A program made the position numbers and the translations under genes. Positions 330 to 62,733 of a DNA stretch of 64,000 nucleotides are shown here, one piece after another; positions within the stretch are counted from its first letter, which is position 1, and each line of letters begins with the position of its first letter. Source of the stretch: Candidatus Komeilibacteria bacterium (GTDB taxonomy: Bacteria > Patescibacteriota > Patescibacteriia > UBA1558 > 2-01-FULL-52-15). The notes beneath the pieces are model-generated. The model worked only from the letters and a program-made list of their open reading frames with translations, did not search any database and was not told the origin of the DNA. Where the stretch lies: the NCBI GenBank assembly GCA_043801745.1, contig JAZDLR010000016.1:1535-65534 (forward strand). The letters run 5' to 3'.

Positions 330-752
330 ATGCCCGAACAACCACCGCGACTTCCAGACAATAATATTGAATCAAACATTGAAAGTGTTGTGGTTGTGTT
401 AAAGCCGGGAGCCCAGGAATATTTGCAGCGTCTGGAAGATTTCTGCACTGAATATGGATTAACAATTCAAGACCGCGCAACTATTCAATTTGACGCCGAA
501 AGTATAAAAAAGTTCTACCCTTATGAGCGGCATCAGCAATATCACGATATGCTGACCGACAGCTTGTCTGCTAAACCATTAGAAGCGCTGCTGATCAGCG
601 GACCGCGGGCAGCTGATCTTTTAAATCGATTAAAGGGCCACGTTCGCGGCATTCTGCACTTACAACCTCCCGCCAATGGAATCCACACCTCTGACTCACC
701 GGAAGAAGCGGACCGCGAATGGCAAGTGCTTAAAGATGCCGCAGTAAAGTAA
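330..752 (+). CDS. nucleoside diphosphate kinase-like protein (divergent)
   Basis: N-terminal VVVVLKPGA and C-terminal NGIHTSDSPEEADREW resemble NDK beta1 and the NxxHGSDSxExAxRE active-site region (His retained). Confidence 0.5.
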   Translation: MPEQPPRLPDNNIESNIESVVVVLKPGAQEYLQRLEDFCTEYGLTIQDRATIQFDAESIKKFYPYERHQQYHDMLTDSLSAKPLEALLISGPRAADLLNRLKGHVRGILHLQPPANGIHTSDSPEEADREWQVLKDAAVK

Positions 753-853
753 GAGCTTATTCTGGCCCCGTTGCTACACTAAGCTTACTATTACCAAAAT
801 TTGAATAATGGTATATTATTAATGCCAGTAATTAACTTGTTTGAAAAAAACTT

Positions 854-6184: not shown

Positions 6185-8413
6185 ATGAATAATAATCTTG
6201 AACAACCAAACATTGAGAATCGGCCACCAGTTGAGGCAAAAAAGGAAATTCCGCAGTCGGTTAAAACCATAAAAAAACTTGCCGCGAAATACCCAGAAAT
6301 GGGCTGGCTCACCGGCGATATTGATGCTACGCCAGAGACGAGTATCTCGGATCAAACCGAGGGCACTATTGGTAAGTATATTTTCCCAAATCTTGACAAA
6401 AAAGATTTGATTGAGTTCGACAGAACCGCAGTCGGGATACTAACTCTCCAGTGGGCGGCAAATGGAGATTATGAAAGTTTTACTGCTTGCCAAAAGGGGC
6501 CGACAAAATTAACGCCGGAGGATTTTACAAAACTTCAAGAATATACAAAATCGATTTTACAAAACCCGGAAGATTTTGAGGCAATGGAAACTTTTATGGT
6601 CATCAACGACCTCGGTAAAATTAAGAGTGTTGTAGAAAATATCGCAGAGAAATCAGGAGTTAGAGATGTTGATCACGATAGAATGCTTCTTGTTGGGTTG
6701 GAGCAACACCCTGATATTTCACCGAGCTTTCAAAAATTATCGCCCCGCCACAAAGAGTTAATACTCAATGGCCTAAAGACAAAATTCAACATTGGACAAT
6801 TTATCCAAGGCGAAAATGTACCCGCGAGCCTTGAGGGGCTAAAAGGTATAGATGAGGAAAGCTTGAAATTCTATCTCTTGCATGCACTTTATGATATCGC
6901 TGGAGCGGCAGGTCACTCTGTACAAAATGGATCAATGGTAATGAACGAGCCAACATACGAAAATTTCCGCTTGGCAATCGACTCACTCGAAAAATTGGGT
7001 GAGGGGCAAACTACTGACGAAGCGTATGACGCGTATCTTGCCCAGAAAGCGGAAAAATTTGGTTTCGATATATCAGTTCAGGCGGATCGAGCCACTACAC
7101 GAATCTGTTGTATGCTTAGAACTTCTAAAGTGGGGGAAGCGCAGGAGGTTTTGCGGGTGTTTTCAGAACTGCCGCAAAATACTCGCGCGATACTCGAGAA
7201 TGACCTGAACATGCGAGGAACTAATGACGGTATCGCAACGCTGATTTACTATGCTCCTGCATTTCTTGCAAATCTTCAAAAAAAATTTAGTGAGAGCGGG
7301 GACCCAAATTCTTCTAAAAAAGCACTCGCGCTTGGTTTGGGTACTTTTGCCAGAGTATTTCAAGAGGCGCACATCGCAAATAAAGGAAGGGTAGGGAACG
7401 GTGTATATACTGTTATGGCGTCTCCACTTGCGAAAGTAGCTGCTGAAAACCCCGCTAAATTATTGACACAGGATATAAATCTAAAAACTATTGGTAATGA
7501 TGCGGAAATTGAGCTCACTGATGTTCCAGTAGTTGATAAGGATAAATTTCAAAAAATTGAAAGCTTGACAGAAATTCCCGGTAAGAAAATAGTTGTGGTG
7601 GGAATTGGCGGCGGGTCGGATTGCGTACAAGCAGCATTGCTTGCAGAGTTACTTAAAAAATCAGAAAAAGAATGTCCTTGTGTTATTTCAGTTCGGACAG
7701 AAAAAACAGGATCACAGGGTGCGGGCGGAAAAGTTGGAGAGAAAAGAACAGTAGAAAATCATGGCGGGGAAATTAAAAAGGGTGTTTATCTGATTACGCC
7801 AAAAACTACGGGGTCTGGTAGATTTTTGGAAAATATACCAACGAGTGATATCCCTGTATATTTAATTATCGAACAAGATGGCATTGGCTTGTCGGAACAA
7901 ATAAATTCTGTGTTAGAACAGGTCGGCGGCGTAGATACAGTTGTTGCAGTTGATACTGGTGGTGATGCTTTGTACTCTACAACTGGTCACGATGAAACAA
8001 AAGCAACGCCAGATCAGGATTTGCGAAGCCTTCAAGCGATCAGCAATCTTTCTGGAGTACAAAAAATAAGCTGTGAAATTGCTGTCGGGATAGACACACC
8101 GCCGAATGGTGAGAGTGTATTACTTGACGCAGAGGCAAAACACTACGAGCCAACGCCAGAGGAAGCGACCATGATTTTAGAAAAATATCGGGAGTGGCAA
8201 ATGGACGGTTCAAATGAAGCACGTTTTGGTAAGACACCTCTTGCTTGGCAAGAAGCACTACAAAACCATTTTGGTTTTCAAGAAATAAATTTGCCTAAAA
8301 GAGTAGTACTTGATAAAAAGAATCCGTGGAAACCCTTTGTGCATGTGCAACCAAGCACAAAAGGGATGTTCTTTATGGATGTTGAAAAACATTTGAAAAG
8401 TATTGGTAAGTGA
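6185..8413 (+). CDS. hypothetical 742-aa protein (orphan; C-terminal GIGGGSD ... DTGGD nucleotide-binding-like domain)
   Basis: Long ORF with different codon flavour (A/purine-rich) than neighbours; located exactly between the 49-bp direct repeats. Confidence 0.55.
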   Translation: MNNNLEQPNIENRPPVEAKKEIPQSVKTIKKLAAKYPEMGWLTGDIDATPETSISDQTEGTIGKYIFPNLDKKDLIEFDRTAVGILTLQWAANGDYESFTACQKGPTKLTPEDFTKLQEYTKSILQNPEDFEAMETFMVINDLGKIKSVVENIAEKSGVRDVDHDRMLLVGLEQHPDISPSFQKLSPRHKELILNGLKTKFNIGQFIQGENVPASLEGLKGIDEESLKFYLLHALYDIAGAAGHSVQNGSMVMNEPTYENFRLAIDSLEKLGEGQTTDEAYDAYLAQKAEKFGFDISVQADRATTRICCMLRTSKVGEAQEVLRVFSELPQNTRAILENDLNMRGTNDGIATLIYYAPAFLANLQKKFSESGDPNSSKKALALGLGTFARVFQEAHIANKGRVGNGVYTVMASPLAKVAAENPAKLLTQDINLKTIGNDAEIELTDVPVVDKDKFQKIESLTEIPGKKIVVVGIGGGSDCVQAALLAELLKKSEKECPCVISVRTEKTGSQGAGGKVGEKRTVENHGGEIKKGVYLITPKTTGSGRFLENIPTSDIPVYLIIEQDGIGLSEQINSVLEQVGGVDTVVAVDTGGDALYSTTGHDETKATPDQDLRSLQAISNLSGVQKISCEIAVGIDTPPNGESVLLDAEAKHYEPTPEEATMILEKYREWQMDGSNEARFGKTPLAWQEALQNHFGFQEINLPKRVVLDKKNPWKPFVHVQPSTKGMFFMDVEKHLKSIGK

Positions 8414-31929: not shown

Positions 31930-31970
31930 AACGACCCGCCACTCAATTGAGTAGCGGGTCGTTTTTTTCT
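31930..31970 (+). terminator. intrinsic terminator after the pilin cluster (ACGACCCGC ... GCGGGUCGU plus U7)
   Basis: 9-bp GC-rich stem followed by a T7 tract. Confidence 0.7.
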
Positions 31971-31980
31971 TGGTTACCCC

Positions 31981-32499
31981 CTAACGATAGATCGGGATTC
32001 GTACTTGGGGCCCTTGGAAAGCATCTCGCCCCTTGTCATAGACCGGTAGACACTTTCGGTAGAGTCTCCTGCTCCCATCGGGGCACTCTATCAGAGCAGT
32101 GATGGGATAGCAGGCAAAGGCCTTGTTCGGCTTGACCCGAATCAGGGTGGGCAATGTCTGCTGCTGGGGACCCAGGCGGAACTTGGGCTCATGTACCCAC
32201 TTGTACTCCACCCAGGAGGTGTCGGCGCCGGATCGGGTCCGGCCGTGATGCGGCCGCTCCTCCTGCAGTTCAAACTCATAGGCCAGGCGGACCGACACCG
32301 AACAGCCACAATCGCGTGCCGGTAAACGCTCACCAGTATCCTGATCAACATCGGTTCTGTTCATGACGTTTACGGTCAACCAGTCAGCCCGGTTTTCCGT
32401 AATGTCGCTGGAACTGTGGATCAGGACACTGGTAGAACAGCCTGTCAGCAGCACCAGAGCCGCAAGACAGAAAAGCACAACTACTGGCCAGGATTTCAT
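31981..32499 (-). CDS. lipoprotein (hypothetical), compositionally foreign (high GC)
   Basis: Lipobox LLTGC; local GC content well above neighbours. Confidence 0.5.
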   Translation of the reverse strand: MKSWPVVVLFCLAALVLLTGCSTSVLIHSSSDITENRADWLTVNVMNRTDVDQDTGERLPARDCGCSVSVRLAYEFELQEERPHHGRTRSGADTSWVEYKWVHEPKFRLGPQQQTLPTLIRVKPNKAFACYPITALIECPDGSRRLYRKCLPVYDKGRDAFQGPQVRIPIYR

Positions 32500-32648
32500 A
32501 GCACACCCCTTTCAGAGGGTTTTGGGTTAAAAGCAAGGAAAGGACTAGCTGAATAGTGGAATATACCATATAATATAGCTGCTGTCAACCCCATTAAAAC
32601 ACCCGCCTTTTAATGGGCTAATAGCCCCCTTGTTTATAAACTGTTACA

Positions 32649-45070: not shown

Positions 45071-46014
45071 TCCGTCGACCAGAGATTCGTAAAGATTATA
45101 TTCAAGATAAATACGTTATCATTGCGCCGCGCCGTGGTAAGCGTCCGCGTTTAGTGAGAAAACCCGAGCAACCGCGTCCCTCGCTGAAGGATTCTATCTT
45201 TAGCCCACAAAATATCAACTCCACCCAAGCCCTTTATACTGTCGGCCCAAAAAATAATTGGCGGATTAAGGTTGTACCCAATAAATTCCCGGCCGTTTCC
45301 GTCTCCAACCCCAAAGCTTATGGTCGGCAAGAGGTAATTATTGAGACTCCTAATCCACGGCCGGAATTACACCAATTATCAGTAAAAAATATTGCCGAAC
45401 TTTTGAAAACTTATGGTTTGCGGGCCGATGAATTAGTCAAAGACAAAAAAATTCAGTACATCTTAACTTTCAAAAACGCCGGTGGTGGCTCTGGTGCCTC
45501 TTTGATGCACTCCCATTCACAAATATTCGCTTCTGATTTTATTCCGCCTCACCTGCTGGATAAATCACAAAAATTACAGGAATATAAAATTCGCACCGGC
45601 CGCTGTATTTATTGCGACATCATAAAAAAGGAAATAAAAGGCCCGCGGAAAGTTTATGCCGATAAACATGTTGTCGCCTTCACTCCCTATGCATCGATGT
45701 ATAATTATGAGTGCTGGATTATGCCTCTGCGGCATCATGACAACATTTCTGTGCTTGATCATGAGGAATACTATGCCTGGGCCAAAATCCTAAAACACCT
45801 TCTAAAAAAAGTCGACACTTTAAAACTGGCCTACAATTACTATTTACACCGCGTGATTAATGACAATGACCAACACGTTTACATGAAAATTGTGCCTCGC
45901 GGCGAAATCTGGGGCGGGGTTGAAATTGGTTCGGGCGTGGTAATCAATCCGATTGATCCTGATGAGGCGGCCAAATATTATCGCCGGGGTTTAAATAAGC
46001 GGTCGAGTAAATAA
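45067..46014 (+). CDS. galactose-1-phosphate uridylyltransferase-like HIT-family protein (GalT-like nucleotidyltransferase)
   Basis: HIT-like HSHSQIF motif and CIYCD zinc motif; ATGA start/stop overlap with upstream glgA. Confidence 0.55.
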   Translation: MIRRPEIRKDYIQDKYVIIAPRRGKRPRLVRKPEQPRPSLKDSIFSPQNINSTQALYTVGPKNNWRIKVVPNKFPAVSVSNPKAYGRQEVIIETPNPRPELHQLSVKNIAELLKTYGLRADELVKDKKIQYILTFKNAGGGSGASLMHSHSQIFASDFIPPHLLDKSQKLQEYKIRTGRCIYCDIIKKEIKGPRKVYADKHVVAFTPYASMYNYECWIMPLRHHDNISVLDHEEYYAWAKILKHLLKKVDTLKLAYNYYLHRVINDNDQHVYMKIVPRGEIWGGVEIGSGVVINPIDPDEAAKYYRRGLNKRSSK

Positions 46015-46574
46015 ACAGCACAAATTAGTAGGACCAGAAGAATTAATAGCCCAAGGAAAAATAGTTGAAAAAATTGCGGCGGATACAACTGAATAATCTT
46101 GTCTGTAGCCGAATCAAACTCCCAATTACCGTTAGGAAAAATAAGCTGGTGAGCCGCTCTAAAGAGCGGCTCAAATTGTATTAGGGTTAGTAATCCCAAC
46201 ATTACAATTACTCCACCAACTGTTAAAAAGCCTGGCTCTAAACTTGAAAAAAATTGCTGCCAGCCAGTCCGGCGTTTTATTACTAGAAACGCCGCACCAA
46301 ATAGCAGAATGGTTAACCAAACAATACATTGTTCATTAACTATCAATCGATCAATGTCTTGAACGTGCCTAAGCTCGTTGGCTGATAAATGAAGTAATTC
46401 TATCTCCGAACCGACACGAAAATGATTTAATAAATACATTCTTTCAGCCCGTAACTGTGGGACCTGTCCTAAATAATCAAAAATCAGCCCGTGCCACCAA
46501 GGATTTAATAGTAAGGCCTGAAGTAGCAACAGTATTGTTACTAGGGCGGTTGCGACGCCAAAAAAATACTTCAT
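45978..46574 (-). CDS. membrane protein (hypothetical)
   Basis: 4 TM helices. Confidence 0.4.
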   Translation of the reverse strand: MKYFFGVATALVTILLLLQALLLNPWWHGLIFDYLGQVPQLRAERMYLLNHFRVGSEIELLHLSANELRHVQDIDRLIVNEQCIVWLTILLFGAAFLVIKRRTGWQQFFSSLEPGFLTVGGVIVMLGLLTLIQFEPLFRAAHQLIFPNGNWEFDSATDKIIQLYPPQFFQLFFLGLLILLVLLICAVYLLDRLFKPRR

Positions 46575-46599
46575 ACTATTACTATATCATGGCCCTATT

Positions 46600-47235
46600 G
46601 ACAAATCTATCGGATTATTAAATACTAATGTTCTGTTCCTTGAGTTATTGGATATTCAGAGACCGTGAACTACTGGCGCCTTGCAATCACCACGACCTCT
46701 CACCAGGTCGTGAAGCTGCGCTAGAATTCGCGGTCTCTCCTTTTTGGCCCTAGGTATCCTGCGATTTCTAACCGGGGGGTTAGACTCTTCTAATCCGTAG
46801 AAAGGAGAAACTACACGTAAGGCCGTCAACGAAACACGTTGGCGGGAAATCCACCTTGTTCCGGTGAGGGAACAAAAAACCATGATTTGCACTAGCACCG
46901 AACGTCAGGAAGACTTCCGGCGGAGAACCTGTACCACCAAGGCGCAAGTTAATCCTCCCTGTGTCTATGGATCGCCCCAGCGGGTCAACTGCCACGGTCT
47001 GGTTGCAGGGTTTACTCCTTGTAAATTTTGCGGCCGGGACATGTACACCGGCAAGACCCGTTCTGACATCCTGAAGGGACTGGAAGAAAAACACGCCCTG
47101 ATGACCGCCCGTTCGGCCCCTAACCTAGCCCAGAGCTAGACGTGCAAATCTCTGAAGCCTCAACCTAGACGGCATCTGGCGTTTCAGAGGCAACAAGTTC
47201 GGGCCCGCTCAGTTTTTTGAGCGGGCCCGTTATAT
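46600..47235 (+). other. GC-rich, hairpin-rich non-coding region (candidate structured ncRNA locus; unassigned)
   Basis: GC far above genome background; overlapping ORFs on both strands; long-range stem 46657-46740 followed by T5; strong terminator 47193-47225. Confidence 0.3.
47193..47230 (+). terminator. intrinsic terminator (GGGCCCGCUC-AGUUUUUU-GAGCGGGCCC then U-rich)
   Basis: 10-bp perfect stem. Confidence 0.6.
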
Positions 47236-47254
47236 TTTCACAGCCAAAAAAAGT

Positions 47255-48463
47255 TTATTTAAGTTTAGTGCGACCGAAACTAACCCTTCGAAATTTTCTG
47301 CCTAGTCGTACAATGTCGCCGCTATCAATGCTGCGCTTAAAGTCCTTAACCTTCTCGTCATTAATATAAACCGCGCCTTCTTCAATCTTTCTTCTGGCTT
47401 CAGAATTTGATGTTGTTAAACCGGCTTTGACCAGAACAGAAATGATGGTTTTTTCCGGCGACAGAATCCTCACTTCTTGAATGTCATCGGGCGCCATTTT
47501 ATTACTGAACTGGTTAATAAAGTTTCGGTGCTGCTTGCTGGCTTCAGATTTATTAAAATAGACAGCCACAATACTAGCGGCCAAAATTAACTTAATGTCC
47601 CGCGGATTAGCCCCTTTTTTCAGCTGGCTTTCGTGTCGCTTTACTTCCTCCAGGGGAACGCGGGTACAATGAATAAAATAGTTAATTATTGCTTCGTCCC
47701 GCAGACTCATAACCCGACCAAACATGTCGCCGGCAGTATCAGTTAAATTAATGGTGTTGCCCCAACTGGAAGACATTTTACGTCCATCAGTGCCTTCAAT
47801 TAAGTTATTCATTAATAAATCCTGCGGCTGTTGTTTATAGTACTGCTGCAGCGCGCGTCCTGACAACAAATTAAAGCGCTGATCAGTCCCCCCCAGCTCA
47901 ACGTCGGCTTTAACCCTAACCGAATCATAGCCCTGCATTAAAGGATAGAGTATTTCGCGCAAGGAGATGCGCTTACCGCTCTTGTAACGCTTAGAGATAT
48001 TTTCCCGAGCCATAAATTCAGCTAAGGAAAACTGATCGGCCTGCTCACCGATTTCCGCGTAATTTAATTTGCCCAGCCATTCAGAATTATGATGCACCTC
48101 GGCTTGAGCTAAATCAATGATTTTGCTGGCCTGCTGTAAATAGGTTTTCAGGTTGCTTTTGACCTGCTGTGGTGTAAGCATCGGCCTTTCGCTCTCTTTG
48201 TCGCTGGTATCACCAATTGTGGCTGTAAAATCACCGACAATAAATACCGCCCTATGGCCCAGTTTTTGAAAATCGCCCAGCTTTAGTAAGGGGATGGAGC
48301 GCCCCAAATGAAGGTTGGGACTGGTCGGGTCAATGCCCAGCTTGACACGTAGCTGCTTGCCAGAACACAGCCGTTGTTCTAAACTTTTACGCTCAATGAC
48401 CTCGGCCACGCCTCGCTCTAAAAGTTCCTTAATTTTTTTCTTATCAGTACTAATTTTGCCCAT
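47255..48463 (-). CDS. tyrS: tyrosine--tRNA ligase
   Basis: HIGH-like PTSPNLHLGR, KMSSS (KMSKS variant), C-terminal S4 domain. Confidence 0.9.
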   Translation of the reverse strand: MGKISTDKKKIKELLERGVAEVIERKSLEQRLCSGKQLRVKLGIDPTSPNLHLGRSIPLLKLGDFQKLGHRAVFIVGDFTATIGDTSDKESERPMLTPQQVKSNLKTYLQQASKIIDLAQAEVHHNSEWLGKLNYAEIGEQADQFSLAEFMARENISKRYKSGKRISLREILYPLMQGYDSVRVKADVELGGTDQRFNLLSGRALQQYYKQQPQDLLMNNLIEGTDGRKMSSSWGNTINLTDTAGDMFGRVMSLRDEAIINYFIHCTRVPLEEVKRHESQLKKGANPRDIKLILAASIVAVYFNKSEASKQHRNFINQFSNKMAPDDIQEVRILSPEKTIISVLVKAGLTTSNSEARRKIEEGAVYINDEKVKDFKRSIDSGDIVRLGRKFRRVSFGRTKLK

Positions 48464-51547: not shown

Positions 51548-51652
51548 TGGAGCGGGTGATGGGATTCGAACCCACGACGTCTTCCCGAGGTAAGAGGCAG
51601 ATCACACATACCCCGCCAGAAGAAAGCGCCCTACCTCTGGGCCACACCCGCT
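51548..51652 (-). tRNA. tRNA with ~29-nt insertion in anticodon loop (anticodon CUG/Gln-like if insertion removed at 37/38)
   Basis: Acceptor GCGGGTG/CACCCGC, D-arm GCCC-AGAGGTA-GGGC, T-arm GTGGG-TTCGAAT-CCCAT, CCA encoded; anticodon stem CTTTC/GGAAG interrupted by hairpin GGGGTA...TACCTC. Confidence 0.5.
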
Positions 51653-51784: not shown

Positions 51785-52029
51785 AGCTATGGCAACAAAA
51801 AATATCTCTGAAGCCTACCCGCCTATGGTGGGCAGCGACACGAATATAGATATTAATACAACTCAAAATCAGTGTCAATTACTATTACTTGACATTATCT
51901 TAATAATATGATAAAAAATAATGTTCTTTGAAATCATGGGCCTGTTATGGCCTTGTATATATAGAACTCCATACGGAGGTTGCCGACAACGCGTCGGCAT
52001 AGACACAAAACCGCCATGAACCGAGGAGG

Positions 52030-52428
52030 ATGAGTATCGTGGCTAGCAAAACCCTGTATGGAAAGGTGGGGGTGACGCGGCCTAACGAGCCAACACTAAT
52101 AGTGACCACCTTTCGCCTTCACATTGGTGAGGTAGTGAAAAGGCTAGGTCTCTACCCCTCTCCTAACGGGAACGAGTATGTCGTCGACCAACTGCGCGAT
52201 GGCTTGGAGATTAGGATGCCTTCGTCGGCTATTCTTTTTCTCTGCACCATACCAACTCCCTGCGTTATCTATGAGCGTGAGATTTATCTAGGAAAGGATC
52301 ACGGGGAGTCGGGCCCATTCCTCTTGAAAGAGGGCGCACGTTTCATGCGAGGCAACACGAACGACCTCTTCGTGGAAGCTCTTTCATCCTTTTTGCAAGC
52401 TACCACCCCGGACATCAATAACGCTTAG
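52030..52428 (+). CDS. hypothetical protein (high-GC island ORF1; GTG start)
   Basis: GAGGAGG RBS 7 nt upstream; GC about 58-60%. Confidence 0.5.
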   Translation: MSIVASKTLYGKVGVTRPNEPTLIVTTFRLHIGEVVKRLGLYPSPNGNEYVVDQLRDGLEIRMPSSAILFLCTIPTPCVIYEREIYLGKDHGESGPFLLKEGARFMRGNTNDLFVEALSSFLQATTPDINNA

Positions 52429-52477
52429 CGGGCCGAAACCTACCCACCCAAACACAGACATACGACTGGAGGATCTT

Positions 52478-52717
52478 ATGATTTTCGTAGAATTCACCCC
52501 CAAAGAGACTTCTCCCATGAGGCGCAAATACTTTTTCGTCGGCGCCAGTTTGGAGGACGTCCTCGCGGACACAAGCGGTGGTACGGAATTTGGATTCGTC
52601 ACCTTCGCCTCTCACCGCGAGATTTCCGAGGAAGAAGCTCGCAGCCTGAAGCTGGGCTACCTGGACAAGGGCATTCAGGCCGTGAAGAACGGCTGCAAGA
52701 GCTACATGCTGGACTAG
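52478..52717 (+). CDS. hypothetical protein (high-GC island ORF2)
   Basis: GGAGGA RBS; 79 aa acidic protein. Confidence 0.45.
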   Translation: MIFVEFTPKETSPMRRKYFFVGASLEDVLADTSGGTEFGFVTFASHREISEEEARSLKLGYLDKGIQAVKNGCKSYMLD

Positions 52718-52778
52718 GCTTTTAGCGCGCAGACAACTGCGCACACGATCACTAGACCCCCACAGGAGGTAGCAACAC

Positions 52779-53438
52779 ATGAAACGGATCATTCTGATCG
52801 CTCTGCTTGCCTGTCTGTTCGTGATCCCGACGTTCACCACCGTCTGCCTGGCTGCAGATCAGCCGGCAGTCAACACCACCTCCACCGGCCTCACCCCCGA
52901 GGACATCGCGCAGCTGCAGAAGAACGTGACGGCGTTTGCGAAGGTCCTGGGTTTGGCTGACACCACCACCGCCAAGTCCGGGACTCGGCTGTCAATGGCC
53001 GATGTGGCTGACAAGTTCCTGGAGTACTCCAAGGCGGCCATTCTGGCGACTGTCGGTACCATCGAGAAGGTTGCTCCACATGTTTGGGCTGTGTTGGTAC
53101 GACAGCAATACGCCAAAGCTTTCTCTTCGTTGGCAGCCCCAGTCTTCATCTTCATCTTCCTGTTGCTCTTTCGACTGTGGGTCGTGAGGAAGAGGAAGAG
53201 CGTCACTGCGACAGAAAACGACGTACTCGTTGTAGTGAACGGCAACCTCGATCCAGTCGAGATCAAACTGACCGGTTTGGGTCAGTGGGCCAACGTCCTG
53301 GCGCTTCTTGGAATGGTCACTGCAGCCCTGTTCGTGGCAGCACGGATTGCGCCGGCAGTCAGACTCCTGGTCAACCCCGAGTACTATGCGCTCCGCGACC
53401 TCATTCTCCTGCTCCTGAACAAGGGCCAGGGGATGTAG
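52779..53438 (+). CDS. hypothetical membrane/secreted protein (high-GC island ORF3)
   Basis: GGAGG RBS; signal peptide then Thr-rich region and two TM helices. Confidence 0.5.
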   Translation: MKRIILIALLACLFVIPTFTTVCLAADQPAVNTTSTGLTPEDIAQLQKNVTAFAKVLGLADTTTAKSGTRLSMADVADKFLEYSKAAILATVGTIEKVAPHVWAVLVRQQYAKAFSSLAAPVFIFIFLLLFRLWVVRKRKSVTATENDVLVVVNGNLDPVEIKLTGLGQWANVLALLGMVTAALFVAARIAPAVRLLVNPEYYALRDLILLLLNKGQGM

Positions 53439-53468
53439 GTCCTCAACATCCACCACGGACAACAACAA

Positions 53469-53502
53469 ACGCCGGTCGCGCTCTGCGGCCGGCGTCTATT
53501 TT
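53469..53502 (+). terminator. intrinsic terminator closing the high-GC cassette (ACGCCGG ... CCGGCGU plus U-run)
   Basis: GC-rich stem followed by TCTATTTT. Confidence 0.6.
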
Positions 53503-62188: not shown

Positions 62189-62264
62189 TGTTGGGGTCCC
62201 GCTCGCGGGGGTAATTTTAAAATTACGCATTCTCTGGAATTCGTCATCTGGGATAGTCTGAAAA

Positions 62265-62573
62265 AAGAGAACGCCACGGTCGAATGATCGTGGCGTTTTG
62301 ACGCAAGGTCCGCACAAGCCGCAGATGGGCAAGATGGGCGAAACCCGCAGATGATATAACCTTATTGGCTTTTTGCCGGCACCATAGGGGGCTATCCCCC
62401 ACAGGTACCGCGTCACCCCCTTTATCGAAGTATCGGGGGCTTGCTCGCCCACTGGGCGACGGCAGGGTTGGGGCACATTGGCCCCGTTAGCCGAGGAGAC
62501 ACTCGTCGGACCGCTGAGCTCTAGCGGCCAAACAGGCGTTTCCTTTCTAAACCCTCGATCCCTGGGCGTCCCC
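62265..62573 (-). other. GC-rich structured non-coding region; tentative tmRNA-like element
   Basis: Minus strand begins GGGGACGCCCAGGGAUCGAGGG (resembles tmRNA 5' GGGGCUGAUUCUGGAUUCGACGGG); 3' side has hairpin CCACG-AUCAUUCGAC-CGUGG then CGUUCUC that can pair with the 5' end; no tag ORF identified. Confidence 0.2.
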
Positions 62574-62733
62574 TGGGATCAATGTACTAATAACCTTTTA
62601 TCATATATATAAAATTGTGTCAACCCCGAAAACCGAAGTAAATTAAAATAATGGCTAGTTTTGGCCAATTTAGGTGCTAATCATACTATGTTTGAGTGTT
62701 CGGGTCCCAAGTTGCAAGCCACAAGTCCCCTCT

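What the first reader, a model, noticed from the sequence alone, without database searches (positions are those of the whole stretch)
46580..47250. About 650-nt GC-rich, ORF-poor, hairpin-rich block between a membrane-protein gene and tyrS: unassigned structured RNA(s)
In this AT-rich genome the segment stands out by GC content and has overlapping reading frames on both strands, as expected for non-coding GC-rich DNA. It contains a long-range helix (AGAGACCG at 46657 pairing with CGGTCTCT at 46733) enclosing internal hairpins and followed by T5, which resembles a ~90-nt small RNA. It also has a CTAACC-GGGG-GGTTAG hairpin and a 10-bp perfect terminator at 47193-47225. Candidate identities that I could not confirm from conserved motifs are RNase P RNA, SRP RNA, 6S RNA, a riboswitch leading the Cys-rich 91-aa ORF (46864..47139), or a lineage-specific RNA.
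Basis: seen in the sequence. Interest (0 to 1): 0.5.

Follow-up and report, generated by a model that had tools for sequence, protein, structure and literature searches.

The report
Structured leader RNA plus orphan small-protein gene
The GC-rich block is a self-contained small gene of a Komeilibacteria (CPR) bacterium: a strong promoter, a roughly 250-nt highly folded 5' leader RNA matching no known RNA family, an 85-aa zinc-ribbon-like orphan protein and a terminator; in related genomes this kind of leader is better conserved than the protein it precedes and than the neighbouring essential tyrS gene.

Summary
Window 46580-47250 has GC 0.50-0.56 against a 0.44 background and folds far better than shuffles (z -4.5 to -6.9).

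The block is not a known RNA. Rfam 15 gives no RNase P, SRP, 6S, tmRNA or riboswitch match, even at E<=10.

It is also not ORF-free. The ORF from ATG 46882 to 47139 (85 aa) has a positional homologue in a related MAG (BLASTP 3e-6; both start MICTS and share CxxCxRD). AlphaFold2 models it at pLDDT 85.

The block reads as one transcription unit on the + strand:
- promoter TTGACA-17-AATACT
- about 249 nt of structured 5' UTR
- the ORF
- a 3' UTR hairpin
- a 13-bp terminator

Nine related contigs keep one or two units of the same design between tyrS and lit, and together these carry at least five unrelated small-ORF families. In close genome pairs the leader is 91-97% identical. The ORF is only 58-84% identical (dN/dS 0.27-0.5), and synonymous sites of tyrS differ by 30-61%.

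I conclude it is a lineage-specific, strongly constrained structured leader RNA in front of a fast-evolving orphan protein. Its function is unknown; translational or stability control is inferred.

The parts
46598..46626 (+). Sigma-70-type promoter: -35 TTGACA (46598-46603), 17-nt spacer, -10 AATACT (46621-46626). The transcription start is inferred near 46633.
   Evidence: 10 of 12 consensus matches. A TTGACA-N16-18-TAnnnT promoter sits at the same place in every sister module.
46575..46604 (-). Divergent promoter-like site for lit. Its -35 (TTGTCA) overlaps the module's -35 on the other strand, and the -10 abuts the lit ATG, so lit is probably leaderless.
   Evidence: plus sequence reading (same arrangement in L001 and L004). 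Inferred, not tested.
46630..46644 (+). 5'-proximal pyrimidine-rich motif GTTCTGTTCCTTGAG (family consensus roughly GTTCYTTSAA). In the MFE fold it pairs with the ribosome-binding region GAGGGAACA.
   Evidence: pairing. One search shows a related motif in all 12 module leaders. It also occurs at 51905-51920 in a second GC-rich island.
46658..46738 (+). H1, an 81-nt long irregular hairpin: closing helix 46658-46669 / 46727-46738 and apical hairpin 46691-46712 with loop CUCACC.
   Evidence: z=-5.7. An equivalent long-range closed domain of 75-139 nt starts 29-43 nt into all 12 extracted leaders. Its 5' strand is purine-rich (GGAG-like) and its 3' strand is CUCC-like.
46735..46747 (+). CU-rich tract CUCUCCUUUUUGG directly after H1. 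It resembles an anti-Shine-Dalgarno sequence and a weak terminator tail. In the MFE it pairs with the upstream SD-like box.
   Evidence: a CU-rich tract follows H1 in all modules, but a run of at least 4 U is present in only some.
46768..46783 (+). G-run hairpin CUAACC-GGGG-GGUUAG.
   Evidence: A run of at least 5 G lies at a similar place in 7 of 12 leaders. In family D it pairs with the C-run at the foot of H1.
46799..46807 (+). Upstream Shine-Dalgarno-like box AGAAAGGAG, 83 nt before the AUG. No conserved upstream ORF follows it.
   Evidence: such a box is present in 12 of 12 leaders at -79 to -108 from the AUG, with a chance of 0.04-0.13 per leader in shuffles; no consistent uORF.
46823..46845 (+). 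Leader hairpin CCGUCAACG-AAACA-CGUUGGCGG.
   Evidence: A hairpin between the box and the SD is supported by compensatory changes in family D (helix 7).
46866..46873 (+). Shine-Dalgarno region GAGGGAAC of the small ORF, 9 nt before the ATG.
   Evidence: GAAAGG/GAGGG-type SDs sit 8-12 nt before the AUG of all module ORFs.
46882..47139 (+). Small ORF of 85 aa (MICTSTERQ...). It is Cys-rich and zinc-ribbon-like: two beta hairpins and a C-terminal helix. It is an orphan family.
   Evidence: Positional homologue L033:4793-5059 (BLASTP 3e-6; alignment A3). AF2 pLDDT 84.6. No Pfam, NCBIfam, PHROG or PADLOC family. No fold match. Only a weak motif match to GFTPCPxCGxD repeats of P0123 (E 1e-4).
47150..47189 (+). 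3' UTR hairpin: CUCUGAAGC / GCGUUUCAGAG, with loop ..CAACCUAGAC...
   Evidence: L033 has a hairpin with a different stem but the same GUGCAAAUC lead-in and a CAACUAGA loop. CUAG(A)-containing 3' UTR hairpins also occur in families C and D.
47200..47239 (+). Intrinsic terminator: a 13-bp G+C-rich stem with a 4-nt loop, then UUAUAUUUUC. The hairpin is shared with convergent tyrS, but the U-rich tail is on the module strand.

Best explanation
The block is one autonomous, monocistronic transcription unit of about 605 nt on the + strand. It sits between tyrS (convergent) and lit (divergent) in a Candidatus Komeilibacteria genome.

What the sequence shows:
- A near-consensus promoter drives an mRNA whose roughly 249-nt 5' UTR folds into a closed multi-helix domain.
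- That domain contains a 5' pyrimidine motif, the long hairpin H1, a CU-rich tract, a G-run hairpin, an upstream SD-like box, a further hairpin and the true SD.
- An 85-aa zinc-ribbon-like orphan protein gene, a 3' UTR hairpin and a strong terminator follow.
- The unit is one member of a clade-specific set of promoter-to-terminator cassettes that occupy this same slot, one or two per genome.
- The cassettes share the leader and 3' UTR design but carry at least five mutually unrecognisable small-ORF families.
- The leader RNA, not the protein, is the most constrained part.

Inferred mechanism (not shown):
- The leader acts in cis on its own mRNA.
- Its several SD-like (GGAG, AGAAAGG) and anti-SD-like (GUUCCUU, CUCUCCUUUUU) elements pair with each other and with the real ribosome-binding site.
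- Translation, and probably mRNA stability, would then depend on how the leader folds or on a factor that binds H1.
- H1 followed by U5 may in addition stop part of the transcripts early.
For: Transcription unit:
- Promoter and terminator scans find only this promoter and this terminator on the + strand.
- No second promoter lies between H1 and the ORF.

Strand:
- z is -6.9 on + and -4.0 on -.
- Many G-U pairs in the covarying family-D helices would be A-C mismatches on the other strand.

Coding ORF:
- Syntenic homologue with E=3e-6 and AF2 pLDDT 84.6.
- Sister ORF families have dN/dS 0.26-0.51 and B-family homology at 3e-11.

Family and synteny:
- PBP1A-tyrS-[block]-lit-galT-like-glgA is kept in L001, L003, L004, L005, L033, L035, L036, L038 and L039.
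- Each block has the same parts in the same order.

Structure:
- Leader z-scores range from -1.4 to -6.9, and 10 of 12 are at or below -2.4. Host genes score -1.4 to +1.8.
- The H1 long-range helix is rarely matched in shuffles: 0-10 of 100 for 9 of 12 leaders.
- Family D has 93% of cells paired and 17 double-sided changes, against 6.6+/-1.9 in shuffles (0 of 500 reach it) and 0-3 when partners are slid.

Constraint:
- E pair: leader 97.2% identical, ORF 83.5%, tyrS pS 0.30.
- C pair: leader 91.5% (about 97% over the first 180 nt), ORF 58%, tyrS 83% nt identity with pS 0.61, lit 78%.
- Upstream SD-like box in 12 of 12 leaders at -79 to -108.
Against: - No relative close enough to align with the window's own leader exists in any collection searched. 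The nearest TyrRS is 74% identical and ORF family A has only two members. Conservation and covariation are therefore shown for sister cassettes, not for this leader.
- Cross-family correspondence of the leader rests on architecture and short motifs. MAFFT cannot align the families, and I built no covariance model.
- Predicted SD accessibility is not consistently lower than in shuffled leaders: lower in about half of the modules and higher in family E. The translational-masking step is therefore weak.
- The U-run after H1 is not conserved.
- There is no expression data.
- High leader identity in the C pair could in principle reflect recent exchange of only that segment.
Confidence: 0.7

Rival explanations
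1. The 5' part is a stand-alone small RNA of about 110 nt (start near 46633, H1, U5 at 46741-46745). The ORF downstream would be a separate matter or would be expressed only by read-through, making H1 an attenuator.
For: - Promoter, then a very stable closed hairpin, then CC+U5.
- H1 is the most conserved segment in the C pair, about 97% over the first 180 nt.
- U4-U6 runs follow H1 in the window, L003, L005, L004a and L035a.
Against: - The U-run is absent or broken in A_L033, B_L004b, B_L039, D_L035b, D_L038 and E.
- An 81-139-nt multi-branched hairpin is not a canonical intrinsic terminator, and the scan flags only a 6-bp sub-hairpin.
- Conserved elements (G-run, SD-like box, hairpin, SD) continue up to the ORF.
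- The ORF has no promoter of its own.
Confidence: 0.15
2. The block is an RNA-protein conflict module of the toxin-antitoxin kind. It could be type III-like, with a structured RNA upstream of the protein that neutralises it. It could instead be type I-like, with a translationally inert, heavily folded toxin mRNA. Either way it would sit in a variable hot spot.
For: - The order promoter, structured RNA, terminator-like hairpin, small ORF is the order found in type III loci (established knowledge of ToxIN).
- Cassette turnover at one slot: C+B in L004, C+D in L035, single A, B, D or E elsewhere.
- Fast protein evolution.
- Predicted 5'-3' end pairing in 10 of 12 full-length folds.
Against: - There are no tandem RNA repeats.
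- The proteins are 67-116 aa, hydrophilic and unrelated to ToxN, CptN, TenpN or any PADLOC model.
- They have no hydrophobic toxin-like segment (sequences).
- No antisense promoter was found in the window block.
- dN/dS is below 1.
Confidence: 0.08
3. The block is merely a horizontally acquired GC-rich gene, such as a phage moron or mobile cassette. Its hairpins would be a by-product of base composition, with no RNA-level function.
For: - GC and GC3 (0.57-0.71) lie far above host genes (0.35-0.48).
- Other GC-rich islands with strong promoters occur in the window.
- Cassette content differs between close relatives.
Against: - z-scores use dinucleotide-preserving shuffles, so composition is controlled.
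- Leaders are conserved far above neutral expectation and show compensatory changes.
- High GC persists in a slot inherited across a clade whose synonymous sites are saturated, which argues for selection rather than recent import.
- No match in phage, plasmid or viral collections.
Confidence: 0.05
4. The block is a divergent copy of a known housekeeping RNA (RNase P, SRP, 6S or tmRNA) or a known riboswitch that the models miss.
For: None beyond GC richness and structure.
Against: - No Rfam match, even at E<=10 with relaxed filters, on the 1-kb region.
- No Rfam match in nine related loci.
- The RNA differs completely between cassette families and can be present twice in tandem. Neither property fits a housekeeping RNA or a conserved aptamer.
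Confidence: 0.02

Closest known systems
Long structured 5' leaders that control translation or stability of their own mRNA (for example cspA-type leaders, ribosomal-protein leaders and SD-sequestering leaders)
   Same: - It lies in cis, upstream of a small gene and within the same transcript.
- It has multiple helices.
- SD-like and anti-SD-like elements are able to pair with the ribosome-binding region.
- It is more conserved than neutral sites.
   Different: - No sequence or Rfam relation to any described leader.
- The same leader design precedes unrelated ORF families, so autoregulation by one specific protein is not the obvious logic.
- The leader is more conserved than the coding region.
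- The whole mRNA, coding part included, is GC-rich and over-structured.
Type III toxin-antitoxin loci (ToxIN, CptIN, TenpIN)
   Same: - The order is promoter, structured RNA, terminator-like hairpin, protein gene.
- The loci are variable and exchangeable.
   Different: - No tandem repeats in the RNA.
- No homology of the proteins to the known toxins.
- The proteins are half the size.
- No evidence of toxicity.
Type I toxin mRNAs (hok, tisB, zorO, aapA1)
   Same: - Very long, highly folded 5' UTRs.
- An upstream SD-like or standby element about 100 nt before the start codon.
- Predicted long-range pairing of the 5' end with SD or 3' regions.
   Different: - The encoded proteins are not small hydrophobic peptides.
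- No antisense RNA gene was found.
Candidate structured RNAs found as long GC-rich intergenic regions in AT-rich genomes (the GC-IGR / DIMPL approach; PMC6429828, PMC8723152, PMC11109978, titles and abstracts seen)
   Same: It was detected for the same reason, as a GC-rich, long 'intergenic' stretch in a lower-GC genome.
   Different: Part of the GC-rich stretch is really a small unannotated-type gene, and the RNA element is its leader. I did not check those papers' motif lists beyond Rfam.

Membership tests
Bacterial RNase P RNA (RF00010/RF00011) | Match to the covariance model, including the conserved P4 and GGAAAGUCC-type core | tested here: not met
   No hit at gathering threshold or at E<=10 in 46400-47400.
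SRP RNA (small or large bacterial) | Match to the covariance model and a conserved domain IV loop | tested here: not met
   No hit. H1 is a long hairpin but lacks any model match.
6S RNA and tmRNA | Match to the Rfam models; for tmRNA also ARAGORN detection | tested here: not met
   No Rfam hit. ARAGORN finds no tmRNA in the window.
Known riboswitch classes | Match to an Rfam aptamer model | tested here: not met
Riboswitch (generic, new class) | An aptamer core conserved in sequence and structure across carriers, coupled to an expression platform | tested here: inconclusive
   An expression-platform-like arrangement exists (SD and anti-SD elements, hairpin plus U-run). The largest domain, H1, is unrelated in sequence, length and branching between cassette families, and no conserved junction core was identified.
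Rho-independent terminated small RNA | Own promoter, stable hairpin and an immediately following U-run that is conserved among homologues | tested here: inconclusive
   Promoter and hairpin are present. U5 is present in the window, but the U-run is not conserved across modules.
Protein-coding gene (the 85-aa ORF) | A homologue with conserved frame, start and motifs | tested here: met
   L033 homologue at the same locus: BLASTP 3e-6, shared MICTS start and CxxCxRD. AF2 pLDDT 84.6.
Protein-coding gene (the 85-aa ORF) | Purifying selection (dN/dS < 1) | tested here: inconclusive
   For the window/L033 pair, synonymous sites are saturated (pS 0.75). Sister families give dN/dS 0.26-0.51.
Type III toxin-antitoxin | Tandem direct repeats forming the antitoxin RNA | not tested
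   No tandem array is visible when reading 46630-46880, but neither repeat tool was run. The blastn-short comparison had same-strand self-matches filtered out.
Type III toxin-antitoxin | ToxN/CptN/TenpN-type endoribonuclease toxin | tested here: not met
   No PADLOC or Pfam hit. No fold match.
Type I toxin-antitoxin | Small hydrophobic membrane peptide toxin and an antisense or partly complementary sRNA | tested here: not met
   The ORF products are hydrophilic. No - strand promoter lies in the block other than lit's.
Integron gene cassette / attC | A promoterless ORF followed by an attC hairpin with R''/R' core sites (RYYYAAC / GTTRRRY), with an integrase nearby | tested here: not met
   Each unit has its own promoter. 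The H1 base is GGAG.../...CUCC, not GTT/AAC. No integrase appears in the conserved neighbourhood.
T-box leader of tyrS | Located upstream of tyrS on the same strand and matching RF00230 | tested here: not met
   The block is downstream of tyrS on the opposite strand. There is no T-box hit anywhere in the window.

The most novel reading that the evidence does not exclude
The roughly 250-335-nt leader is the primary functional product of a previously undescribed RNA-centred cassette system in a CPR clade. It would be a sequence-constrained RNA domain (H1 plus SD and anti-SD boxes) that engages a conserved cellular partner, such as the ribosome, an RNase or an RNA-binding protein, or that neutralises its own protein. 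The fast-evolving small proteins would be interchangeable partners or cargo, and whole promoter-to-terminator units would be swapped at a fixed tyrS-lit hot spot.
Probability: 0.2. Interest if true: 0.75.

Novelty: new variant of a known kind. Interest (0 to 1): 0.5.

Why it matters
CPR/Patescibacteria genomes are small and densely packed, and almost nothing is known about their RNA-level regulation. This clade keeps a 0.7-1.5-kb slot filled with long untranslated RNA whose sequence is held more tightly than the adjacent aminoacyl-tRNA synthetase gene. The encoded small proteins, by contrast, diverge beyond recognition and are replaced by unrelated ones.

If confirmed, it would add a new structured RNA motif that is absent from Rfam. 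It would also add a set of orphan zinc-ribbon-type small proteins to the sparse functional map of these organisms.

There is also a practical caution. 'GC-rich, ORF-poor' regions in such genomes can hide real small genes that gene callers sometimes miss: no gene was called in this slot in L036 or L038.

Tried and rejected
- Known RNA families: Rfam at gathering and at E<=10, and on nine related loci, gave nothing.
- Word-index protein search with the window ORF: nothing. With the two-sequence profile it returned only L033's own protein.
- Exhaustive HMMER search with the window ORF: only repeat artefacts, plus one weak zinc-ribbon motif match, P0123.
- Exact-protein look-up of the window's TyrRS and Lit: not on record.
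- Direct DNA similarity of the block to relatives: none by blastn or nhmmer. All comparison is therefore architectural or within sister families.
- Metagenome scan with AANNATGATTTGCACT: the pattern was too unspecific.
- Viral-contig scans with H1 cores of families D, A and C: only chance hits inside GC-rich phage genes, or none.
- Phage and plasmid BLAST: no match.
- Hypothesis that the 5' motif masks the SD: partition-function accessibility is not consistently below shuffled controls.
- Hypothesis that the SD-like box serves an upstream ORF, or that an ORF is translationally coupled to the main AUG: no consistent uORF.
- Trans-complementarity of the block to the rest of the window: only chance-level 10-13-mers.
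- Cross-family MAFFT alignment of the 3' half of the leaders: too poor to build a covariance model, so no CM search was run.
- Minus-strand reading (a lit 5' UTR): rejected. lit appears leaderless with its -10 next to the ATG, and the G-U pairs and z-scores favour the + strand.
Full report
**1. Checking the observation**

The window averages 43.9% GC. Between 46600 and 47200 the 200-nt GC values are 0.465-0.555, while the flanking lit and tyrS genes are at 0.38-0.45.

- A long-range helix, in fact 12 bp: AGAGACCGUGAA 46658-46669 with UUCGCGGUCUCU 46727-46738. It encloses an apical hairpin at 46691-46712 and is followed by CC+U5.
- The CTAACC-GGGG-GGTTAG hairpin at 46768-46783.
- A terminator whose stem is 13 bp, at 47200-47229.

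Folding is well beyond composition. The z-scores are -5.7 for the 101-nt H1 segment, -4.7 for 46630-46890 and -6.9 for the whole block on the + strand, against -4.0 on the - strand. GC richness as such is not unique: the window has other GC-rich islands.

**2. Not a known RNA**

Rfam 15 finds only four tRNAs in the 64-kb window at gathering thresholds. On 46400-47400 with E<=10 it returns only chance matches centred on the terminator hairpin. Nine related loci also give nothing. RNase P, SRP, 6S, tmRNA, T-box and all described riboswitches are therefore not supported.

**3. What surrounds it and who carries it**

The left neighbour (45978-46574, - strand) is a Lit/TIGR01906-family membrane protein, and the right neighbour (47255-48463, - strand) is TyrRS. 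The TyrRS is 100% identical to a protein named 'MAG: tyrosine--tRNA ligase [Candidatus Komeilibacteria bacterium]'. The next-best relative is only 74% identical.

A genome-collection scan and contig look-ups recovered nine related contigs: L001, L003, L004, L005, L033, L035, L036, L038 and L039. All keep the order PBP1A - tyrS - [0.7-1.5 kb] - lit - galT-like - glgA.

The intervening DNA is not alignable to the window by blastn or nhmmer. It is nevertheless built the same way, always on the strand opposite to tyrS:
- a TTGACA-N16-18-TAnnnT promoter
- an AT-rich start with a GTTCYTT-like motif
- a large hairpin domain closed by a purine-rich/CUCC helix (H1, 75-139 nt)
- a CU-rich tract
- often a G-run
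- an SD-like box
- a further hairpin
- an SD
- a small ORF (67-116 aa)
- usually a 3' UTR hairpin
- a terminator

L004 and L035 carry two such units in tandem.

**4. The ORF is real**

The best start is ATG 46882, preceded by GAGGGAAC, which gives 85 aa.

Database searches were almost empty:
- No Pfam or NCBIfam family.
- No word-index homologue.
- In the exhaustive HMMER search, only a weak match (E 1e-4) to GFTPCPxCGxD zinc-ribbon-like repeats of P0123. The other hits are low-complexity repeats.

The unit in L033, however, encodes an 88-aa protein at the same position. It begins with the same MICTS and shares C..CxxCxRD..G plus a C-terminal helix (BLASTP 3e-6 for the pair). The DNA just after the stop codon (GUGCAAAUC) and the loop of the 3' UTR hairpin (CAACYUAGA) are also shared.

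AlphaFold2 with only these two sequences gives pLDDT 84.6: helix 6-15, two beta hairpins, helix 60-78. No solved or viral structure resembles it significantly.

The other units carry different ORF families:
- B: L003, L004b and L039 (3e-11 for one pair)
- C: L004a and L035a
- D: L005, L035b and L038
- E: L001 and L036

None has a Pfam, PHROG or PADLOC assignment. Where close pairs exist the ORFs evolve as coding sequence, with dN/dS 0.26-0.51. The claim that the block is ORF-poor and non-coding is therefore wrong for 46882-47139.

**5. The leader RNA is nevertheless the constrained part**

In the two close genome pairs the untranslated regions are far more conserved than anything around them.

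| Region | E pair (L001/L036) | C pair (L004a/L035a) |
|---|---|---|
| Leader | 97.2% | 91.5% (about 6 differences in the first 180 nt) |
| 3' UTR | 100% | 82% |
| ORF | 83.5% | 58% |
| tyrS | 91.4% nt, pS 0.30 | 83% nt, pS 0.61 |
| lit | 71.5% nt | 78% nt |

The first 180 nt of the C-pair leader cover the 5' motif and H1.

The three family-D leaders are 66-70% identical, against 44-62% for their ORFs. Their RNAalifold structure has 78 pairs, of which 17 changed on both sides while staying paired. The controls give 6.6+/-1.9 in column shuffles (0 of 500 reach 17) and 0-3 when partners are slid by 1-3 columns; 93% of cells are paired. The many G-U pairs fix the strand.

The D structure shows:
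- a helix that closes the whole leader, pairing the segment just 5' of H1 with a segment about 25 nt before the SD
- the three-way H1
- a C-run/G-run helix
- a hairpin before the SD
- the SD presented in a small hairpin

Across all 12 leaders:
- A long-range helix starts 29-43 nt into the extracted leader (which begins about 6 nt after the -10) and ends 103-172 nt in. For 9 of 12 leaders it is matched in only 0-10 of 100 shuffles.
- An SD-like box (GAAAGG, AAGGAG and similar) lies 79-108 nt upstream of every AUG, with a chance of 0.04-0.13 per leader.
- Leaders have z-scores of -1.4 to -6.9, and many ORFs score -2 to -4.7. 300-nt pieces of host genes score -1.4 to +1.8.
- GC3 of the cassette ORFs is 0.57-0.71, against 0.35-0.48 in host genes.

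That high GC persists in a slot inherited across a clade with saturated synonymous sites. This argues for selection on the transcript rather than recent import.

**6. Model for the window**

The anatomy is shown directly by the sequence; everything else is inferred.
- The promoter lies at 46598-46626, and its -35 overlaps the -35 of the divergent, apparently leaderless lit promoter.
- The transcript runs from about 46633 to about 47237.
- In the MFE fold the 5' motif UGUUCCUU pairs with GAGGGAACA at the ribosome-binding site.
- H1 follows.
- The CU tract (46735-46747) pairs with the AGAAAGGAG box (46799-46807) around the G-run hairpin.
- A further hairpin at 46823-46845 precedes the SD.

I infer that this arrangement of SD-like and anti-SD-like elements controls access of ribosomes to the real SD and protects the mRNA. 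I also infer that H1, being sequence-constrained within families, is a binding platform for an unknown factor.

This step is weak. Computed SD accessibility is not consistently below shuffled controls. No conserved uORF follows the box. The U-run that would make H1 a terminator is not conserved.

**7. Rivals**

- *A stand-alone sRNA ending at U5.* This is possible for a fraction of transcripts. It does not explain the conserved elements further downstream or the lack of a promoter for the ORF.
- *A toxin-antitoxin-like module.* The gene order, the cassette turnover and the fast protein evolution fit. There are no visible RNA repeats, no known toxin fold, no hydrophobic peptide and no antisense promoter.
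- *'Just foreign GC-rich DNA'.* This is contradicted by dinucleotide-controlled z-scores, by covariation, by conservation above neutral, and by the absence of any phage, plasmid or viral match.
- *A minus-strand RNA (a lit leader).* This is rejected on promoter position, G-U pairs and z-scores.

**8. Limits**

The window's own leader has no alignable relative in any collection I could reach. Its conservation and covariation are therefore extrapolated from sister cassettes at the same locus. The cross-family relation of leaders rests on order, position and short motifs; MAFFT could not align them and I built no covariance model. Only 64 kb of this genome and +/-3.5-5 kb of the relatives were available. 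Whether such cassettes occur elsewhere in these genomes is unknown, although none was seen in the flanks. There is no expression evidence.

**9. Verdict**

The named identities are wrong, and the 'non-coding' reading is partly wrong. What is there is a small orphan protein gene with an unusually long, strongly constrained, lineage-specific structured leader. It belongs to a set of exchangeable cassettes at a fixed slot in a Komeilibacteria-related clade. It is not in Rfam. I rate it a new variant of a known kind (a cis-acting structured mRNA leader) and of moderate interest.

Noticed in passing
window 51548-51651 (- strand): A tRNA-Gln(CTG) gene with a 29-nt intron at the canonical 37/38 position. 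Rfam reports a 101-nt tRNA hit, default ARAGORN misses it, and aragorn -i calls it. A short, non-group-I intron in a bacterial (CPR) tRNA gene is unusual.
   Followed up: partly
window 62225-62640 (- strand): A GC-rich (0.56-0.58) unit of about 330-380 nt, running from a TTGACA promoter to a hairpin+U6 terminator (about 62262-62300). It has no convincing ORF and no Rfam hit, and z=-3.8. It contains a UUUAGAAAGGAAAC box like the cassette leaders. It is a candidate unassigned ncRNA.
   Followed up: partly
window 51880-53500 (+ strand): A second GC-rich island (GC up to 0.61). It has a promoter and the same 5' motif (AAUGUUCUUUGAA) as the finding's leader. Three ORFs follow (132, 79 and 219 aa; the last has a signal peptide and TM segments), then a terminator near 53462-53495. 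It may belong to the same regulatory class of GC-rich accessory units.
   Followed up: no
window 31930-32600 (- strand): A GC-rich (up to 0.61) 172-aa ORF with a lipoprotein-like signal (LTGC), behind a consensus TTGACA-17-TATATT promoter. This is another compositionally atypical unit.
   Followed up: no
window 46572-46604 (- strand); also L001 about 6890-6915 and L004 about 7660-7685: lit appears to be expressed as a leaderless mRNA, with a TATAGT/AATAGT -10 ending 0-6 nt before its ATG. Its -35 (TTGTCA) overlaps the cassette's -35 (TTGACA) on the opposite strand. The two divergent promoters may therefore compete for RNA polymerase.
   Followed up: no
L004 6230-7660 and L035 4340-5790 (module strand = locus - strand): Two cassettes sit in tandem in the same slot. 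The lit-proximal one (family C) is shared. The tyrS-proximal one differs: family B in L004 and family D in L035. Similarity ends right after the first cassette's terminator, so whole promoter-to-terminator units are exchanged.
   Followed up: partly
L006 about 745-768 (both strands): A more distant Patescibacteria MAG (Moraniibacteriota, TyrRS 59% identical) also has back-to-back consensus promoters leading into GC-rich (0.57-0.61) sequence. GC-rich promoter-driven units may be widespread in CPR genomes.
   Followed up: no
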